Source: Escherichia coli (GTDB taxonomy: Bacteria > Pseudomonadota > Gammaproteobacteria > Enterobacterales > Enterobacteriaceae). Taken from it: a DNA stretch of 64,000 nt. The stretch is taken from the NCBI RefSeq assembly GCF_051903065.1, contig NZ_CP178439.1; one strand, 5' to 3'. How positions within the stretch are numbered: position 1 is the first letter of the stretch; each line of letters begins with the position of its first letter. Of the stretch, positions 36,701 through 42,700 are shown piece after piece. Position numbers: made by a program.

Positions 36701-39700
36701 GACCGTCGTCGATTAGTACCGGTACGGTCGGTGGTATCGAAGTCTTGATCACCACTCAGGTCTACGGCTTACAAATGGTGACCATCCCGATACTTGCGTC
36801 AGAGCACCGGGCCGATTCTTTGACAGTGAATCACTCCCGTAAGGTTGTGCCGGTGTGGGTGTCCCGGGTCGAGACGATACTCCGCCAATGCGCCCAGCAA
36901 ACAACCTGGCCATCGCAGGTGGTGGGGAGCGGTGTGGCGGATGAGTTGGACAAGTTGGTGTAGCAGCACGAGCACGGCGAGATAACATCGCAGGAGTTCG
37001 ACATGCTCAAGAGACAGCTGATTGCGAATCGCGATGCAGATTCATAACCCGATTGCGGGTTGGCTTCACTCCACCATCACCGAGCAGACTAGCACGGCGG
37101 GCTCTGTTGCAAAGATTGGCGGCAGTCAGAGGTAGGCTGTCGCTCTGCGCCGATCAGGCGGCTGCTGCGAAATGGTGGTTGAGCATGCCCATGGCCTCCG
37201 TCAGCGCCGAGGGCCCAATGCCAAAAGCTCTCTCCACAAGGCGCACCTCGCCCCTGATGCCGGGCTGCAGGCACCAGGGGCGAGCCTGTCCTTTGCGCAG
37301 GGCTCGCATGACTTCGAATCCCTTGATCGTGGCATAGGCCGTGGGGATCGATTTGAAACCGCGCACCGGCTTGATCAGTATCTTGAGCTTTCCGTGATCG
37401 GCCTCGATCACGTTATTGAGGGCACTGTTGCAAATAGTCGGTGGTGATAAACTTATCATCCCCTTTTGCTGATGGAGCTGCACATGAACCCATTCAAAGG
37501 CCGGCATTTTCAGCGTGACATCATTCTGTGGGCCGTACGCTGGTACTGCAAATACGGCATCAGTTACCGTGAGCTGCAGGAGATGCTGGCTGAACGCGGA
37601 GTGAATGTCGATCACTCCACGATTTACCGCTGGGTTCAGCGTTATGCGCCTGAAATGGAAAAACGGCTGCGCTGGTACTGGCGTAACCCTTCCGATCTTT
37701 GCCCGTGGCACATGGATGAAACCTACGTGAAGGTCAATGGCCGCTGGGCGTATCTGTACCGGGCCGTCGACAGCCGGGGCCGCACTGTCGATTTTTATCT
37801 CTCCTCCCGTCGTAACAGCAAAGCTGCATACCGGTTTCTGGGTAAAATCCTCAACAACGTGAAGAAGTGGCAGATCCCGCGATTCATCAACACGGATAAA
37901 GCGCCCGCCTATGGTCGCGCGCTTGCTCTGCTCAAACGCGAAGGCCGGTGCCCGTCTGACGTTGAACACCGACAGATTAAGTACCGGAACAACGTGATTG
38001 AATGCGATCATGGCAAACTGAAACGGATAATCGGCGCCACGCTGGGATTTAAATCCATGAAGACGGCTTACGCCACCATCAAAGGTATTGAGGTGATGCG
38101 TGCACTACGCAAAGGCCAGGCCTCAGCATTTTATTATGGTGATCCCCTGGGCGAAATGCGCCTGGTAAGCAGAGTTTTTGAAATGTAAGGCCTTTGAATA
38201 AGGAGAGCATGAAAAACCTCGGGGCAGCCATCGAATGATGCCATCTACAGGGGTTAAAATAACCACCATCATTTCATAACAATACCTGCTGACTATGAAG
38301 ATCTACGTCATCAAAATAGCAGTTCATGGAGTCAGTCCGATGGTCTGGCGTCGGCTGAGAATTGCTGCCGACACGTCACTGGCCGCGCTTCACTTCATTT
38401 TCCAGATAGTGCAGGGCTGGGGGGACGACCATCTCCATCAATTTCACATTTATGGCAAAGATTACGGTATCTCCTACGAAGGAGGCATCGGTTTTGTCGA
38501 TAATCCGTTCCGGGTCGTGATTGATGATTTTGCTTTTGATGCTGGCGATCGCTTTACCTATGAATACAATTTCTGGCACTGTTGCAAAGTTAGCGATGAG
38601 GCAGCCTTTTGTCTTATTCAAAGGCCTTACATTTCAAAAACTCTGCTTACCAGGCGCATTTCGCCCAGGGGATCACCATAATAAAATGCTGAGGCCTGGC
38701 CTTTGCGTAGTGCACGCATCACCTCAATACCTTTGATGGTGGCGTAAGCCGTCTTCATGGATTTAAATCCCAGCGTGGCGCCGATTATCCGTTTCAGTTT
38801 GCCATGATCGCATTCAATCACGTTGTTCCGGTACTTAATCTGTCGGTGTTCAACGTCAGACGGGCACCGGCCTTCGCGTTTGAGCAGAGCAAGCGCGCGA
38901 CCATAGGCGGGCGCTTTATCCGTGTTGATGAATCGCGGGATCTGCCACTTCTTCACGTTGTTGAGGATTTTACCCAGAAACCGGTATGCAGCTTTGCTGT
39001 TACGACGGGAGGAGAGATAAAAATCGACAGTGCGGCCCCGGCTGTCGACGGCCCGGTACAGATACGCCCAGCGGCCATTGACCTTCACGTAGGTTTCATC
39101 CATGTGCCACGGGCAAAGATCGGAAGGGTTACGCCAGTACCAGCGCAGCCGTTTTTCCATTTCAGGCGCATAACGCTGAACCCAGCGGTAAATCGTGGAG
39201 TGATCGACATTCACTCCGCGTTCAGCCAGCATCTCCTGCAGCTCACGGTAACTGATGCCGTATTTGCAGTACCAGCGTACGGCCCACAGAATGATGTCAC
39301 GCTGAAAATGCCGGCCTTTGAATGGGTTCATGTGCAGCTCCATCAGCAAAAGGGGATGATAAGTTTATCACCACCGACTATTTGCAACAGTGCCCGTCGG
39401 CTTGAGATGCACATGTTGGCTGAGGTCGCCGGGTAGCGTGAACAGGCGCGGACCGTCCCGAAACTGGAACACGCGATACAGATGGAATTGATCGCCCGCC
39501 TCCTTGGAGAATTCGAGTTCGTTGTGGCTGACCAAGAAAGACGAGCCTACCCCGCCATTGGTGGTTTTCACCTCGATGAAGCGCTCATGGGCGTCCTCTT
39601 CGAACGACAGGATGTCGAACCCCGCACCGTCTCCCTGGGTGTCGGACACCCAATCCAGCCGCTGAAAAAGCTCTGGGTGGCCGAGCTCGGTCAGGCGTTG

Positions 39701-42700
39701 CTGTTCGTAGCCAATCACCCACTGCTCCCCTGCCCGGCCCAGCTTGCGGTTGGCTTCATCGCGAGCGGCATAATCGAACTTTCGCGGTAGGCGTTGCCGT
39801 AGAGATGCCGGGGTACGCACAAGCACTTCACGGGCGGGTGGTTCTACCAAAGCCGCTCGGTAGGTTTTGTCACCCGGAAGTTTTACCTCCTCCAGGGCAT
39901 CGACAAGAGCGCCGACCGTCTGCTGATGTTCCAGAACGTAGGCGTGTACGGATTTACGCAGCAGCAGTTGGCTGTTGCCGCGTGGCTTGTAGCCGTTGAT
40001 ATAGGGCAGGCCCAGGGCATCGAGTACGGCGCTAATGTTCTGGTGCTTGAGCTCGACTGAAGACTTGCTGCGACCGTTCAGCAGTTGGCGCAGTGCCTGG
40101 TTGTGCTCGGACTTGTTGTACGGCTCCCCAGCCGCCTCGGCACGCAGCATGTCGAAATAGTCTTCGACCGTGGCCAGGACCTCTTCTTCGGACCAGTCTT
40201 CGCCGATGCGAATGATGCGAAACCCGAGCCGCGTCAGCGCCGGAACGACGGTCGCCTCGCCACTGGAGAAGCTGTCAGCAGTGAGCGGGCCCTGCTCGGG
40301 AAATTGCTTGCCGAAGGCCACACCGGCGATGGCCTTGGAATCGCAATCGGTGCCGGTCTTCGGATCACGTACCAGGAAGTCGCGGGACTTGCCGTAGCCG
40401 TGGCGCGCCAGGAATTTCGTGCGGCCCAGTTGCACGAACTCATCGATGGCAGCCTGCACGGCGGCGGGGCTTCGAAGCTGGGAGAGTTGAGACACAGGGT
40501 CCTTCCTTACTGTCATGGTGTGCCGGGAACCGCCGAGCCACGAGATTATGAGTAGCCCCTGAACAGAAACGTCACGATAAAAGCCGTGAACGCCACCAGG
40601 CCCATTAAATCCCTTGCGTATTTGCAGCCCGTGCTGTCCAAACCTGTACCAGGTCCGATCAACACGCTCCAACCATTGAGGTACGAAAACACCGCCTGAC
40701 CGAACAAAAAATGCGTGATAGCCGCCGCAGCCATGACGCCGGAATCGTCAGACAGGCTGTAGCTGTTGACCATTGCCCTGTACGCCTGCATCTGAAATGG
40801 CTATTGCCCTGATGGGAGCCGGCTTTTCAGCCACCGACACCAGCGATGCCGTCAATATTCTTTACCCGATAACCATGACCGTACAAGCTAACAAGGCCTG
40901 GCAAGCCAGCGGACTTAAAAAGTCTTTTTTTCTACCATCCCACAAAAAAGTTCGTGGTGGAGAAAAGATAAGCTATGCAAGGCTTTAGGAGACGTGGTTT
41001 TTCAGGATGACGAAGAACGATTCGGCGCTAGGTGCAACATAGGTGCATCGCACGAGCGCTAGGAACGGCGAAAAAAGGCGGACGTGGCGAAATCGGTAGA
41101 CGCAGCAGACTTTAAAATTGGAGTGCCCGCGGGGAAATCCGCGGAGTAGAACCGCTCAAAGTCGGGGAACGCTAACGGGCAATACCCTAAGCCAATCCCG
41201 AGCCAAGCCCCTTCGGGGGAAGGTGTAGAGACTGGACGGGCGGCGCCTAAAGCCTTCGGGCAATGGCGAAGGGACAGTCCAGACCACGAACGTCATCAGA
41301 CGGCGGCGAAAGTCGAGGTGGTACGAAAATCTGCTTCTCTGTGAGAGTACGGGTTCGAGTCCCGTCGTCCGCACCACAAAGCCAAACATCCCTGCGATGA
41401 TCGACCTCTGGGCGTTTGGTCGTGAGCCCGCCACCCTCGCGCTACGCTTTGCGCAGGCGTCGAAGGCGATCAGGTGCGCCCATCGATTCCGTCGAGCACC
41501 ATCGCTGCGAGTTCATCGCTGGTGTGTGCACCACTATCGAGAACACGGGTTGTGCATGGAAGCCGTTCCCTTGCGGCCAAGCATCGGGCGACATTCGCTA
41601 ATCGCCACTCTCGAATCTCCGCATTTCGATTCGGGTCAGGATGCATGGTCTGGTTCGCGATCCGGTGACGCAATAGGTCCTCGTTGAGCGTCAGAAAGAT
41701 GTGCAGCAGCTGATCGTCGATCCGCCTTACCCCGTCGAGTATCTCAGTCAGATAGTCCGGGTGCACGAGCGTCATTGGGATGATGATGTCCTGCGAGTAA
41801 TTCCTTCGAATCTCCCTGACCGCCGCGATCGTAAGTCCCCTCCACAAGGGGAGATCCTGATAGTCTCCGCTCGCTGGCATGGGGACCGTTTCTTTCACCA
41901 CGAACCCGATTTCCTCGGGGTCAAAGATCAGCGATTTGGAACGCCGATCGCGCAGCCGCTTAGCGAGCGTCGTCTTTCCGGCGCCGAAAGGTCCGTTGAT
42001 CCAGATTATCATTGTCGACGGCCTCTAACCTGAAGGCTCGCAAGAGCGCTCGACGGCCTCGTGCGGAGGCACGATCGGAGTGGTTCCGAAATGCTTCTCA
42101 AGATAGGTGACGCCGAACGTCACGATGTCCTGCGCGTCGAACAGGTAGCACTGAGCAAAGCCCACGACACCTTCTCGATGGCGACCGAGCTTCACGTAAG
42201 CATTTGCTATAGTTTCAACCGCATCCGGCTTTCCTTCGATAGCAAAGCAATCGAGAATGCCGTTTGAATCGTAATCCGATGCCGTTTTCCAGGCGACTTC
42301 ACCGTCTCTTCCAAGCATCGGCATCTCATACGTCACCCACCGTTTGTTGGGGATATCGGCAACCGCCTCGGCGTAGTGCAATGCGGTAACGGAGTTTAGC
42401 GGCGCACCCAACAGCAGGGCCTTCCCGCCAAGGCGAACGAACCGCTCGACGGGCGATCCTTCCCCCAAGGCGTGACCGAGTTCGTGAGGCTCCGTCAGCG
42501 TTTCAGCCAGCGGACCAACCGCGACCATCGATGCATCGGGGTGCGCGCTGCGCCGCGCGCCGGGGGCTTGAACCAGAAATTGATTCAGCAGGCCGAACCC
42601 ACGGTAAGTCCCGGCTGTTGCGGGATCGAACGGCAGCCAGGTACGGCGGGCTTCGTCATCCAGCCGAGCGCCATTCAGAGTCTCCTCGTAGGGTGATCGG

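What the first reader, a model, noticed from the sequence alone, without database searches (positions are those of the whole stretch)
39395..40791. High-GC cargo next to aac(3)-II includes a truncated DUF3883-like gene and a small membrane protein
Between IS26 copy 3 and the tRNA gene lies a gene for a protein with a restriction-endonuclease-like C-terminal region, cut at its 3' end by IS26, preceded by an 81-codon hydrophobic ORF. These are probably remnants of the donor genome of aac(3)-II and may help identify it.
Basis: inference. Interest (0 to 1): 0.3.

Follow-up and report, generated by a model that had tools for sequence, protein, structure and literature searches.

The report
Passenger nuclease gene in aac(3)-II module
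The stretch is a well-known hitch-hiking part of the widespread IS26-bounded gentamicin-resistance module: a restriction-type nuclease gene that has lost its last 11 codons to IS26, plus an orphan small ORF, and it does not point to the source of the resistance gene.

Summary
Window 39395-40495 (-) encodes a ScoMcrA_N + NOV_C (formerly DUF3883) PD-(D/E)xK nuclease. IS26 cuts it at 39394/39395. Only the last 11 of 378 codons are lost, and 8 IS26-derived codons are added. An 81-codon ORF with two hydrophobic segments lies at 40546-40791 (-).

The segment is not new. It is at least 99% identical in about 1,350 PLSDB plasmids. The literature calls it the aacC2-tmrB-orf192-orf228-orf1182-ISCfr1 module. 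RefSeq already names the protein as DUF3883 domain-containing.

The nuclease belongs to a large family found in defence islands (PADLOC candidate PDC-S36).

The donor-remnant idea is only partly supported, because the cargo looks mosaic:
- The nuclease gene is closest to Stutzerimonas/Pseudomonas (81-84% nt).
- The adjacent tRNA-Leu(UAA) is closest to Paracoccus (95%).
- aac(3)-II-tmrB is closest to a Sinorhizobium-like chromosome (86%), whose similarity stops at the tmrB stop codon.
- The small ORF has no relatives outside the module.

In passing: the tRNA gene carries an intact 213-nt group I intron, and the plasmid records I inspected list no feature for it.

Interest is low to moderate.

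The parts
38575..39394 (-). IS26 copy 3 (820 bp). Its right inverted repeat abuts the cargo and truncates the nuclease gene.
   Evidence: Inverted repeats GGCACTGTTGCAAA at 38575 and 39381-39394. tnpA ORF 38627-39349. The 8-bp flanks differ (CAATTTCT and CGTCGGCT), so there is no target duplication.
39368..40495 (-). 3'-truncated gene for a ScoMcrA_N + NOV_C(DUF3883) PD-(D/E)xK nuclease. Residues 1-367 are native (39395-40495). The last 8 codons and the stop (39368-39394) are read from the IS26 inverted repeat.
40496..40550 (-). Native 5' leader of the nuclease gene, including the ribosome-binding site AAGGAAGGA. Similarity to relatives of the nuclease gene ends at about 40550.
   Evidence: Alignment with L005 and L002. 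blastn limits 39395-40514.
40546..40791 (-). 81-codon ORF. RefSeq codons at 40546-40773, which is 'orf228' in the literature. Two predicted membrane-spanning segments. An orphan.
   Evidence: ORF list. Hydropathy and GC3 0.70. No Pfam, NCBIfam or PADLOC hit. Homologues are only copies of this module.
40797..40988 (+). 'orf192' (RefSeq WP_000951934.1). A doubtful ORF that spans the break in similarity at about 40907.
   Evidence: Annotation in L001. GC by codon position is flat at 0.49/0.49/0.47 for 40773-40988. No family hit.
40907..41077 (+). Native upstream region of the tRNA gene. It starts with a terminator-like hairpin, GGACTTAAAAAGTC followed by a T-run.
   Evidence: 81% identical over 168 nt to Paracoccus kondratievae L057, 86% over 58 nt to L087, 95% over 42 nt to L121. 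Sequence read.
41078..41376 (+). tRNA-Leu(UAA) gene with encoded CCA, split between U34 and A35 by a 213-nt group I intron (41113-41325).
   Evidence: Rfam Intron_gpI 36.8 bits, E 8.6e-8. The spliced sequence is a tRNA-Leu(taa) of 86 nt by ARAGORN. 94.7-95.4% identical to environmental alphaproteobacterial copies. 17 of 90 predicted pairs show compensatory changes.
41470..42012 (-). tmrB-like P-loop (AAA_33/AAA_18) gene.
   Evidence: Pfam. Natural relatives: 88% aa in L020-22, 81% in Sinorhizobium meliloti.
42025..42885 (-). aac(3)-IId aminoglycoside 3-N-acetyltransferase gene.
   Evidence: Pfam Antibiotic_NAT E 1.8e-62. 100% identical to the copy that AMRFinder calls aac(3)-IId in pEGY3.
42966..43035 (-). 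RNA-OUT-like antisense RNA. It marks a remnant of an IS10-like (IS4 family) element between aac(3)-II and IS26 copy 4.
   Evidence: Rfam RF00240 98.8 bits against a gathering score of 41. Natural similarity to L020 ends at 42919. L011 has a DDE_Tnp_1 transposase at this side.
43150..43969 (-). IS26 copy 4, in the same orientation as copy 3. Together they bracket a 3,755-bp unit (39395-43149).
   Evidence: Inverted repeats. tnpA 43202-43924.

Best explanation
Window 39395-40791 is passenger DNA of the widely spread IS26-bounded aac(3)-IId-tmrB unit. The literature calls this unit the aacC2-tmrB-orf192-orf228-orf1182-ISCfr1 module.

orf1182 encodes a 378-aa nuclease with three parts: an N-terminal head domain like that of the type IV restriction enzyme ScoMcrA, a helical middle, and a C-terminal PD-(D/E)xK (NOV_C/DUF3883) catalytic domain. 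Its relatives sit in defence islands of Pseudomonadaceae and other Proteobacteria. The most likely native role (inferred) is a stand-alone, restriction-like DNA nuclease against phage or other foreign DNA.

In this window an IS26 event removed the downstream ISCfr1 and the last 11 codons, including a family-conserved [YF]-R-A tail, and fused 8 IS26-derived codons. The catalytic residues remain. Activity of this allele is uncertain and probably irrelevant to why the DNA is here: it rides with the gentamicin-resistance gene.

The small ORF is an orphan whose coding status is unproven.

The cargo is best read as a mosaic:
- a Pseudomonadaceae-like nuclease gene (in the intact module with ISCfr1);
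- an orphan 0.36-kb spacer;
- an alphaproteobacterial (Paracoccus-like) tRNA-Leu gene with a group I intron;
- an alphaproteobacterial (Sinorhizobium-like) aac(3)-II-tmrB pair.

So the nuclease gene does not identify the source of aac(3)-II.
For: Shown:
- Domain content and catalytic motif.
- DUF3883 is an experimentally used PD-(D/E)xK catalytic domain of modification-dependent endonucleases (PMC6765204).
- Relatives lie in defence islands with varying neighbours.
- The family's roughly 280-aa core occurs alone or behind varied N-termini.
- The truncation point, the lost conserved tail and the IS26-derived codons.
- The intact allele followed by ISCfr1 is found in 735 plasmids. The exact IS26 junction of this window is found in 374.
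- The module is named in the literature.
- Breaks in similarity at about 40550, about 40907 and 41472, with different nearest taxa on each side.

Inferred: the defence function, the mosaic assembly order, and the hitch-hiking.
Against: - No relative of any part reaches the roughly 99% identity expected of a true donor. A single unsampled donor that carries all parts side by side is therefore not excluded.
- Accessory genes, and defence genes above all, move between classes of bacteria. Nearest-relative taxonomy is thus a weak guide to the donor.
- The PADLOC PDC-S36 hit was obtained with the 88%-identical Stutzerimonas protein, not with the window's allele. PDC-S36 is also only a candidate system, with no phage test that I could find.
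- The 100% conservation of the ORF across plasmids is uninformative about selection, because the spread is recent.
Confidence: 0.7

Rival explanations
1. Single-donor remnant. The nuclease gene, small ORF, tRNA-Leu, tmrB and aac(3)-II were neighbours in one donor chromosome and were captured together between an IS10-like element and ISCfr1.
For: - There is no IS or recognisable recombination scar between the parts within 39395-42919.
- G+C is similar, 0.55-0.63, over most of the stretch.
- The tRNA and aac(3)-II-tmrB are both alphaproteobacterial in affinity.
- tRNA genes are common borders of accessory islands (general knowledge).
- The flanks are an IS10-like remnant and, in the intact module, ISCfr1.
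Against: - In the closest natural aac(3)-II-tmrB locus, similarity stops at the tmrB stop, and an AttH/FtsX/ABC cluster follows.
- In Paracoccus kondratievae the tRNA is preceded by arginase, not by the nuclease gene, and no tmrB or aac(3) follows it.
- The named closest relatives of the nuclease gene are all Pseudomonadaceae.
- An IS 96% identical to ISCfr1 sits at the same place behind the Stutzerimonas kunmingensis homologue. This ties the nuclease-ISCfr1 pair to that lineage.
Confidence: 0.2
2. Selected plasmid defence gene. The nuclease (at least the intact 378-aa allele) is active in enterobacterial hosts and helps the module or its plasmids, for example by excluding phages or rival plasmids. 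Its retention would then not be mere hitch-hiking.
For: - The ORF is intact in 735 plasmids, and the catalytic residues are kept even in the truncated allele.
- The family is typical of defence islands, and the C-terminal domain also matches PD-T4-1 (E 1.4e-19), which comes from a functional anti-phage screen in E. coli.
- Neighbours of relatives vary, as expected of a one-gene system.
Against: - 374 plasmids carry the allele without the conserved tail and without any sign of compensation. Other records show further-truncated copies of the gene (H131-H133).
- No sigma-70-like promoter was found.
- In the closest relatives (Stutzerimonas, L005) the gene follows a 1,714-1,729-aa helicase that is absent here.
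- Linkage to aac(3)-II explains the spread without any further selection.
Confidence: 0.1

Closest known systems
aacC2-tmrB region of pCTX-M3 / pEl1573 (aacC2-tmrB-orf192-orf228-orf1182-ISCfr1 module; reference JX101693)
   Same: Same DNA. 39395-43100 is 99.97% identical to pEGY3, and the segment is in NC_004464.2 (pCTX-M3) and more than 1,300 other plasmids.
   Different: In this window IS26 has replaced ISCfr1 and the last 11 codons of orf1182. There is also one amino-acid difference (S for G in ...DSFSGGEA...).
PADLOC candidate PDC-S36, and PD-T4-1 (Vassallo et al. 2022)
   Same: The C-terminal roughly 280 aa of the family match the whole PDC-S36 profile (E 1.4e-104, tested on the 88%-identical P0005). 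The NOV_C domain matches PD-T4-1 (E 1.4e-19). The setting is defence islands.
   Different: PDC-S36 is only a candidate. The similarity to PD-T4-1 is limited to the C-terminal part. The N-terminal ScoMcrA_N head is an extra fused domain.
ScoMcrA (PDB 5ZMM), a type IV phosphorothioate/methyl-dependent restriction endonuclease
   Different: No SBD or SRA reader domain and no HNH nuclease. The catalytic domain is PD-(D/E)xK instead.
DUF3427-DUF3883 modification-dependent endonucleases (McaZI, YenY4I; PMC6765204)
   Same: Same DUF3883 PD-(D/E)xK catalytic domain at the C-terminus, behind a variable N-terminal domain. Found in defence islands and often near helicases or NTPases.
   Different: No DUF3427 or PUA reader domain was detected.

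Membership tests
NOV_C / DUF3883 PD-(D/E)xK nuclease domain (Pfam PF13020) | Profile match above the curated gathering score | tested here: met
   76.7 bits against 22.1, E 1.5e-21, profile positions 1-90 of 91.
NOV_C / DUF3883 PD-(D/E)xK nuclease domain (Pfam PF13020) | Catalytic E...D...(D/E)xK residues present | tested here: met
   E257, D294, E308 and K310 are invariant in 72 family members and present in the window allele.
NOV_C / DUF3883 PD-(D/E)xK nuclease domain (Pfam PF13020) | Restriction-endonuclease-like fold | tested here: met
NOV_C / DUF3883 PD-(D/E)xK nuclease domain (Pfam PF13020) | Complete domain, including the conserved C-terminal [YF]-R-A tail | tested here: not met
   The tail (residues 369-371; conserved in 69/72, 40/72 and 63/72 sequences) is replaced by IS26-derived GTVANSRW in the window. 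It is present in the intact plasmid allele.
NOV_C / DUF3883 PD-(D/E)xK nuclease domain (Pfam PF13020) | Nuclease activity | not testable with these tools
   Needs biochemistry.
PADLOC PDC-S36 (candidate one-gene defence system) | Match to the PDC-S36 profile over its full length | tested here: met
   E 1.4e-104, profile positions 4-279 of 280, obtained with P0005 (88% identical to the window protein). The window allele itself was not scanned.
PADLOC PDC-S36 (candidate one-gene defence system) | Located in defence islands | tested here: met
   Relatives lie next to Gabija-like OLD/UvrD genes, large helicases, PIN toxin-antitoxin pairs, HNH genes and integrases. The window copy itself sits in a resistance module, not a defence island.
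PADLOC PDC-S36 (candidate one-gene defence system) | Protection against phage | not testable with these tools
   I found no experimental report. It needs plaque assays.
Type IV (modification-dependent) restriction enzymes of the ScoMcrA type | ScoMcrA-like N-terminal head domain | tested here: met
Type IV (modification-dependent) restriction enzymes of the ScoMcrA type | Modified-DNA reader domain (SBD or SRA) and HNH nuclease | tested here: not met
   No such Pfam hit at E <= 0.01. The nuclease is PD-(D/E)xK.
Type IV (modification-dependent) restriction enzymes of the ScoMcrA type | Cleavage dependent on DNA modification | not testable with these tools
   Needs biochemistry.
IS26-bounded translocatable unit / pseudo-compound transposon | Two IS26 copies in direct orientation bracketing the cargo | tested here: met
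   Copies at 38575-39394 and 43150-43969, both with tnpA on the minus strand.
Group I intron in tRNA-Leu(UAA) (the Leu.3Ug type of Williams 2020; classical cyanobacterial position) | Rfam Intron_gpI gathering score | tested here: not met
   36.8 bits against 50, although E is 8.6e-8. Williams notes that none of the model's seed sequences is bacterial.
Group I intron in tRNA-Leu(UAA) (the Leu.3Ug type of Williams 2020; classical cyanobacterial position) | Insertion between U34 and A35, a U-1:G pair in P1, a 3'-terminal G, and removal giving a canonical tRNA | tested here: met
   Exon ACUU pairs with intron GAGU. G41325 precedes AAAAUCUGC. ARAGORN calls the spliced 86-nt sequence tRNA-Leu(taa).
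Group I intron in tRNA-Leu(UAA) (the Leu.3Ug type of Williams 2020; classical cyanobacterial position) | Conserved, covarying secondary structure | tested here: met
   31 sequences, 90 predicted pairs, 17 with compensatory changes. The window copy keeps the pairs.
Group I intron in tRNA-Leu(UAA) (the Leu.3Ug type of Williams 2020; classical cyanobacterial position) | Self-splicing | not testable with these tools
   Needs in-vitro transcription with GTP and Mg2+.

The most novel reading that the evidence does not exclude
The passengers are not inert. The intact 378-aa nuclease would work as a one-gene anti-phage or anti-plasmid system in Enterobacteriaceae. The neighbouring alphaproteobacterial tRNA-Leu(UAA) precursor would self-splice there. 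More than a thousand resistance plasmids would then carry a working defence gene, an extra tRNA and a ribozyme, and these would contribute to the module's success independently of gentamicin.
Probability: 0.1. Interest if true: 0.55.

Novelty: already known. Interest (0 to 1): 0.25.

Why it matters
For the finding itself, little changes. The segment is a described and annotated part of a common resistance module.

Three useful points come out of the check:
1. The nuclease gene should not be used as a marker for the origin of aac(3)-II. The nearest natural aac(3)-II-tmrB pair found here lies in a Sinorhizobium-like chromosome without it.
2. 'orf1182' can be annotated more precisely, as a ScoMcrA_N-DUF3883 nuclease of a defence-island family.
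3. The cargo contains an alphaproteobacterial tRNA-Leu gene with an apparently intact group I intron. The plasmid records I inspected list no feature for it. It is the best core-genome-like marker for tracing where part of this module came from.

Tried and rejected
- ARAGORN with default settings found no tRNA in the window. This was explained by the intron.
- Sequence searches of the PDB found nothing meaningful, either with the single protein or with a family profile. Foldseek against the PDB gave no significant hit.
- NCBIfam gave no family for the nuclease or the small ORF.
- The 'divergent' homologues of the small ORF (45-81% identity) turned out to be other copies of the same module. L009 and L010 are 98.7-98.9% identical in DNA and have fragmented ORFs, which I read as error-prone assemblies. 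In L011 the ORF is cut short next to a Tn3-family transposase gene.
- A scan of GTDB species representatives with AAC(3)-II found only Paracoccus genes at 72-76% aa. They have no tmrB, tRNA or nuclease gene nearby, so Paracoccus is not the donor of aac(3)-II.
- A metagenome scan for an intron-less version of this tRNA-Leu found nothing.
- L087, the closest tRNA-intron relative, could not be assigned to a taxon.
- The promoter scan found nothing, and the terminator-like sites were at chance level.
- A 30-nt inverted repeat with 73% complementarity (40882-40911 and 43107-43136) brackets the tRNA-to-aac(3) part. Its right arm lies inside the IS10-like remnant and the match is weak. I treated it as chance.
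- Literature searches linking DUF3883 with IS26, or a group I intron with aacC2 or IS26, returned no papers.

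
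Full report
**1. What is there**

The window holds several IS26 copies. Copy 3 is 38575-39394 and copy 4 is 43150-43969. Both have tnpA on the minus strand. They bracket 3,755 bp of cargo, 39395-43149. From left to right the cargo contains:
- a minus-strand ORF that runs into the IS26 inverted repeat (39368-40672 at its longest);
- an 81-codon minus-strand ORF (40546-40791);
- a tRNA gene (41078-41376, plus strand);
- a tmrB-like P-loop gene (41470-42012, minus strand);
- aac(3)-IId (42025-42885, minus strand);
- an RNA-OUT-like element (42966-43035), marking a remnant of an IS10-like element.

G+C is 0.57-0.63 over the first gene. The 8-bp flanks of IS26 copy 3 differ, so there is no target duplication. 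This is as expected after IS26-mediated deletion or cointegration.

**2. The nuclease gene**

The long ORF hits Pfam NOV_C (PF13020, the former DUF3883): 76.7 bits against a cut-off of 22.1.

- **Start.** Relatives start at MSQLSQL... The window has a GTG there (40495), preceded by AAGGAAGGA. Similarity to the relative in L005 begins only about 55 bp upstream of it. RefSeq uses the same start (WP_000080860.1).
- **Length and truncation.** Full-length relatives and the intact plasmid allele (pEGY3, locus L001) are 378 aa and end in ...HVHLKPTDYRASFRSLVG. In the window the native sequence stops after ...KPT. Eight codons (GTVANSRW) and a stop are read from the IS26 end. IS26 therefore removed 11 codons, not a large part of the gene.
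- **Conserved residues.** In an alignment of 72 family members, E257, D294, E308 and K310 are invariant. This is the PD-(D/E)xK signature, and all four residues are retained. The lost tail is itself conserved: aromatic at 369 in 69/72 sequences, R370 in 40/72, A371 in 63/72. The fused allele may therefore be impaired. That is an inference.

  I did not map the homeodomain-like matches to a specific part of the model.
- **Searches with no significant result.** Foldseek and sequence searches of the PDB gave nothing significant.
- **PADLOC.** PADLOC places an 88%-identical relative in the candidate system PDC-S36 (E 1.4e-104). The C-terminal part also matches PD-T4-1, and the N-terminal 95 residues weakly match a type IV enzyme model.
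- **Published activity.** DUF3883 is the catalytic domain of experimentally characterised modification-dependent endonucleases such as YenY4I (PMC6765204).
- **Family size.** An exhaustive HMMER search finds 8,116 clusters at 50% identity with E <= 0.001. Many are about 280-aa proteins matching residues 98-373 alone. Others carry different N-termini.

**3. Where relatives live**

The closest relatives (82-89% aa, 81-84% nt) are in Stutzerimonas and Pseudomonas.
- In S. kunmingensis and in an unnamed Logan contig, the gene follows a 1,714-1,729-aa DEAD/UvrD fusion helicase inside a defence island, with Gabija-like genes and an integrase nearby.
- In P. aeruginosa it stands between a MazG/SLFN-helicase pair and a PIN toxin-antitoxin pair.
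- In Variovorax it follows YjiT/YjiV and precedes HNH and helicase IV genes.

The neighbours vary, which fits a self-contained gene. None of these loci has a tRNA-Leu, tmrB or aac(3) nearby.

In the intact plasmid module the gene is followed by an IS1182-family element (NCBIfam, E 1e-102), which the literature names ISCfr1. That element carries a frameshift in pEGY3. It is 96% identical to an IS at the same place behind the S. kunmingensis homologue, and the sequences just before the IS are similar in the two. This reflects either shared ancestry of the gene-IS pair or a site preference of the IS. I cannot tell which.

**4. The small ORF**

- It has two hydrophobic stretches. GC3 is 0.70, against 0.45 and 0.46 at codon positions 1 and 2. 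That is mild support for coding.
- It hits no Pfam, NCBIfam or PADLOC family.
- In 5.8 billion protein clusters, every homologue is a copy of this same module. The low-identity hits are module copies with fragmented or interrupted ORFs.
- The DNA 40551-40906 occurs in PLSDB almost only at 99% identity or more, always within the module.

It is an orphan. Whether it is a gene remains open.

**5. How common and how well known**

- 39395-41470 is at least 99% identical in 1,347 PLSDB plasmids of Escherichia, Klebsiella, Salmonella, Acinetobacter and others.
- The exact IS26 junction of this window occurs in 374 records.
- The intact 3' end with ISCfr1 occurs in 735, including pCTX-M3.
- A published description names the unit aacC2-tmrB-orf192-orf228-orf1182-ISCfr1 (PMC7096625).

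The feature is therefore already known and annotated, though its ORFs have been left as unknowns.

**6. Does it identify the donor of aac(3)-II?**

I looked for natural relatives of each part.

- **AAC(3)-II.** Among species representatives, only Paracoccus genes turned up, at 72-76% aa and without tmrB.
- **TmrB.** The search led to contigs L020-L022. There an AAC(3) gene (about 88% aa) is directly followed by a tmrB-like gene (88% aa), in the same order as on the plasmid. The neighbourhood is syntenic with Sinorhizobium meliloti, which itself has only tmrB (81%). One neighbouring regulator clusters at 90% identity with S. prairiense and Brucella anthropi. Nucleotide similarity to the window (86.3%) spans 41472-42919 and stops at the tmrB stop codon.
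- **A second allele.** An aac(3)-II/tmrB module 96% identical in DNA (in Anaerobiospirillum, L012) matches the window only down to 41460. An IS3-type transposase gene pair follows there.
- **The tRNA piece.** It is 94.7-95.4% identical to four environmental loci. One of these (L057) is Paracoccus kondratievae, judged by identical MetRS, ArgD and OTC proteins. In addition, 168 nt upstream of the tRNA are 81% identical to L057. That similarity ends at about 40907-40911.

Four pieces thus show four different affinities, with breaks at about 40550, about 40907 and 41472. None approaches donor-level identity. A mosaic is the simplest reading. A single unsampled donor is not excluded; I give it about 0.2.

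**7. Seen in passing: the tRNA gene is split by a group I intron**

- Rfam Intron_gpI matches 41103-41295 at 36.8 bits, below the gathering score of 50, with E 8.6e-8.
- Read by eye, the 5' exon ends ...GCAGACUU. Exon ACUU pairs with intron GAGU, giving the usual U:G pair at the splice site. The intron ends in G41325, and the 3' exon starts AAAAUCUGC.
- Removing 41113-41325 gives an 86-nt sequence that ARAGORN calls tRNA-Leu(taa). This is the classical insertion position of the tRNA-Leu(UAA) intron.
- Of 120 metagenome loci sharing the 5' exon, roughly 40% carry an intron at this site.
- In 31 aligned sequences, RNAalifold predicts 90 pairs, 17 of them with compensatory changes. The window copy has its own compensatory pair (CGUC/GACG where the others have CGCC/GGCG).
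- The records I inspected list no feature over it. pEGY3's table has no RNA gene, and other PLSDB hits show only 'hypothetical protein' or none. That table omits RNA genes by design, so the original records were not checked.
- I found no paper linking a group I intron to this module.

**8. Verdict**

The feature is already known. Interest is low to moderate, mainly for the refined annotation and for the clues about origin.

Noticed in passing
window 41078-41376 (+); intron 41113-41325: The tRNA-Leu(UAA) gene is split between U34 and A35 by an apparently intact 213-nt group I intron. Its closest relatives are alphaproteobacterial (95% to Paracoccus kondratievae and to three unnamed metagenome loci). 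The inspected plasmid records list no feature for it, and ARAGORN with default settings misses it. It rides in more than 1,300 enterobacterial and Acinetobacter plasmids.
   Followed up: yes
window 41472-42919; loci L020-L022 (9092-10541 in L020): The closest natural aac(3)-II-tmrB pair found is 86.3% nt and about 88% aa identical, with the same gene order. It lies in metagenome contigs syntenic with Sinorhizobium meliloti, which has tmrB alone. This points to a Rhizobiaceae-like, or at least alphaproteobacterial, source for the resistance pair.
   Followed up: partly
window 42966-43035 (-), within 42920-43149: A strong RNA-OUT match (98.8 bits) lies just upstream of aac(3)-IId. This is a remnant of an IS10-like (IS4 family) element cut by IS26 copy 4. 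Natural similarity of the aac(3) upstream region ends at 42919, so this IS end probably marks the original capture point.
   Followed up: partly
L001 2400-3930 (pEGY3) and L002 9170-10780 (Stutzerimonas kunmingensis): ISCfr1 (IS1182 family; frameshifted in pEGY3) is 96% identical to an IS that sits at the same position just after the stop codon of the nuclease homologue in S. kunmingensis. The target flanks are similar. This is either shared ancestry or a site preference.
   Followed up: partly
window 41470-42012 (-): The tmrB-like protein has a weak NCBIfam match to the Gar/GrdA garosamine-specific gentamicin-resistance ATP-binding family (E 5e-6, 26 bits, far below the 170-bit cut-off). It is always paired with AAC(3)-II in the natural Sinorhizobium-like locus. 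This hints that its role may concern aminoglycosides rather than tunicamycin.
   Followed up: no
window 40882-40911 and 43107-43136: A 30-nt imperfect inverted repeat (73% complementary) brackets the tRNA-tmrB-aac(3) part. The left arm lies at the break in similarity at about 40907. I judged it probably chance.
   Followed up: no
window 34839-36661 and 38295-38681: Two features lie upstream of IS26 copy 3: a 412-aa membrane-protein ORF followed by a 194-aa regulator ORF, which I recognise from memory as mrx and mphR(A) of the macrolide-resistance cluster (not tested here); and a truncated PRiA4_ORF3-domain ORF. These look like ordinary parts of the multiresistance region.
   Followed up: no
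window 39395-40495, codon for residue 84: The window allele differs from the common plasmid allele by one amino acid: S instead of G in ...DSFSGGEATV...
   Followed up: no
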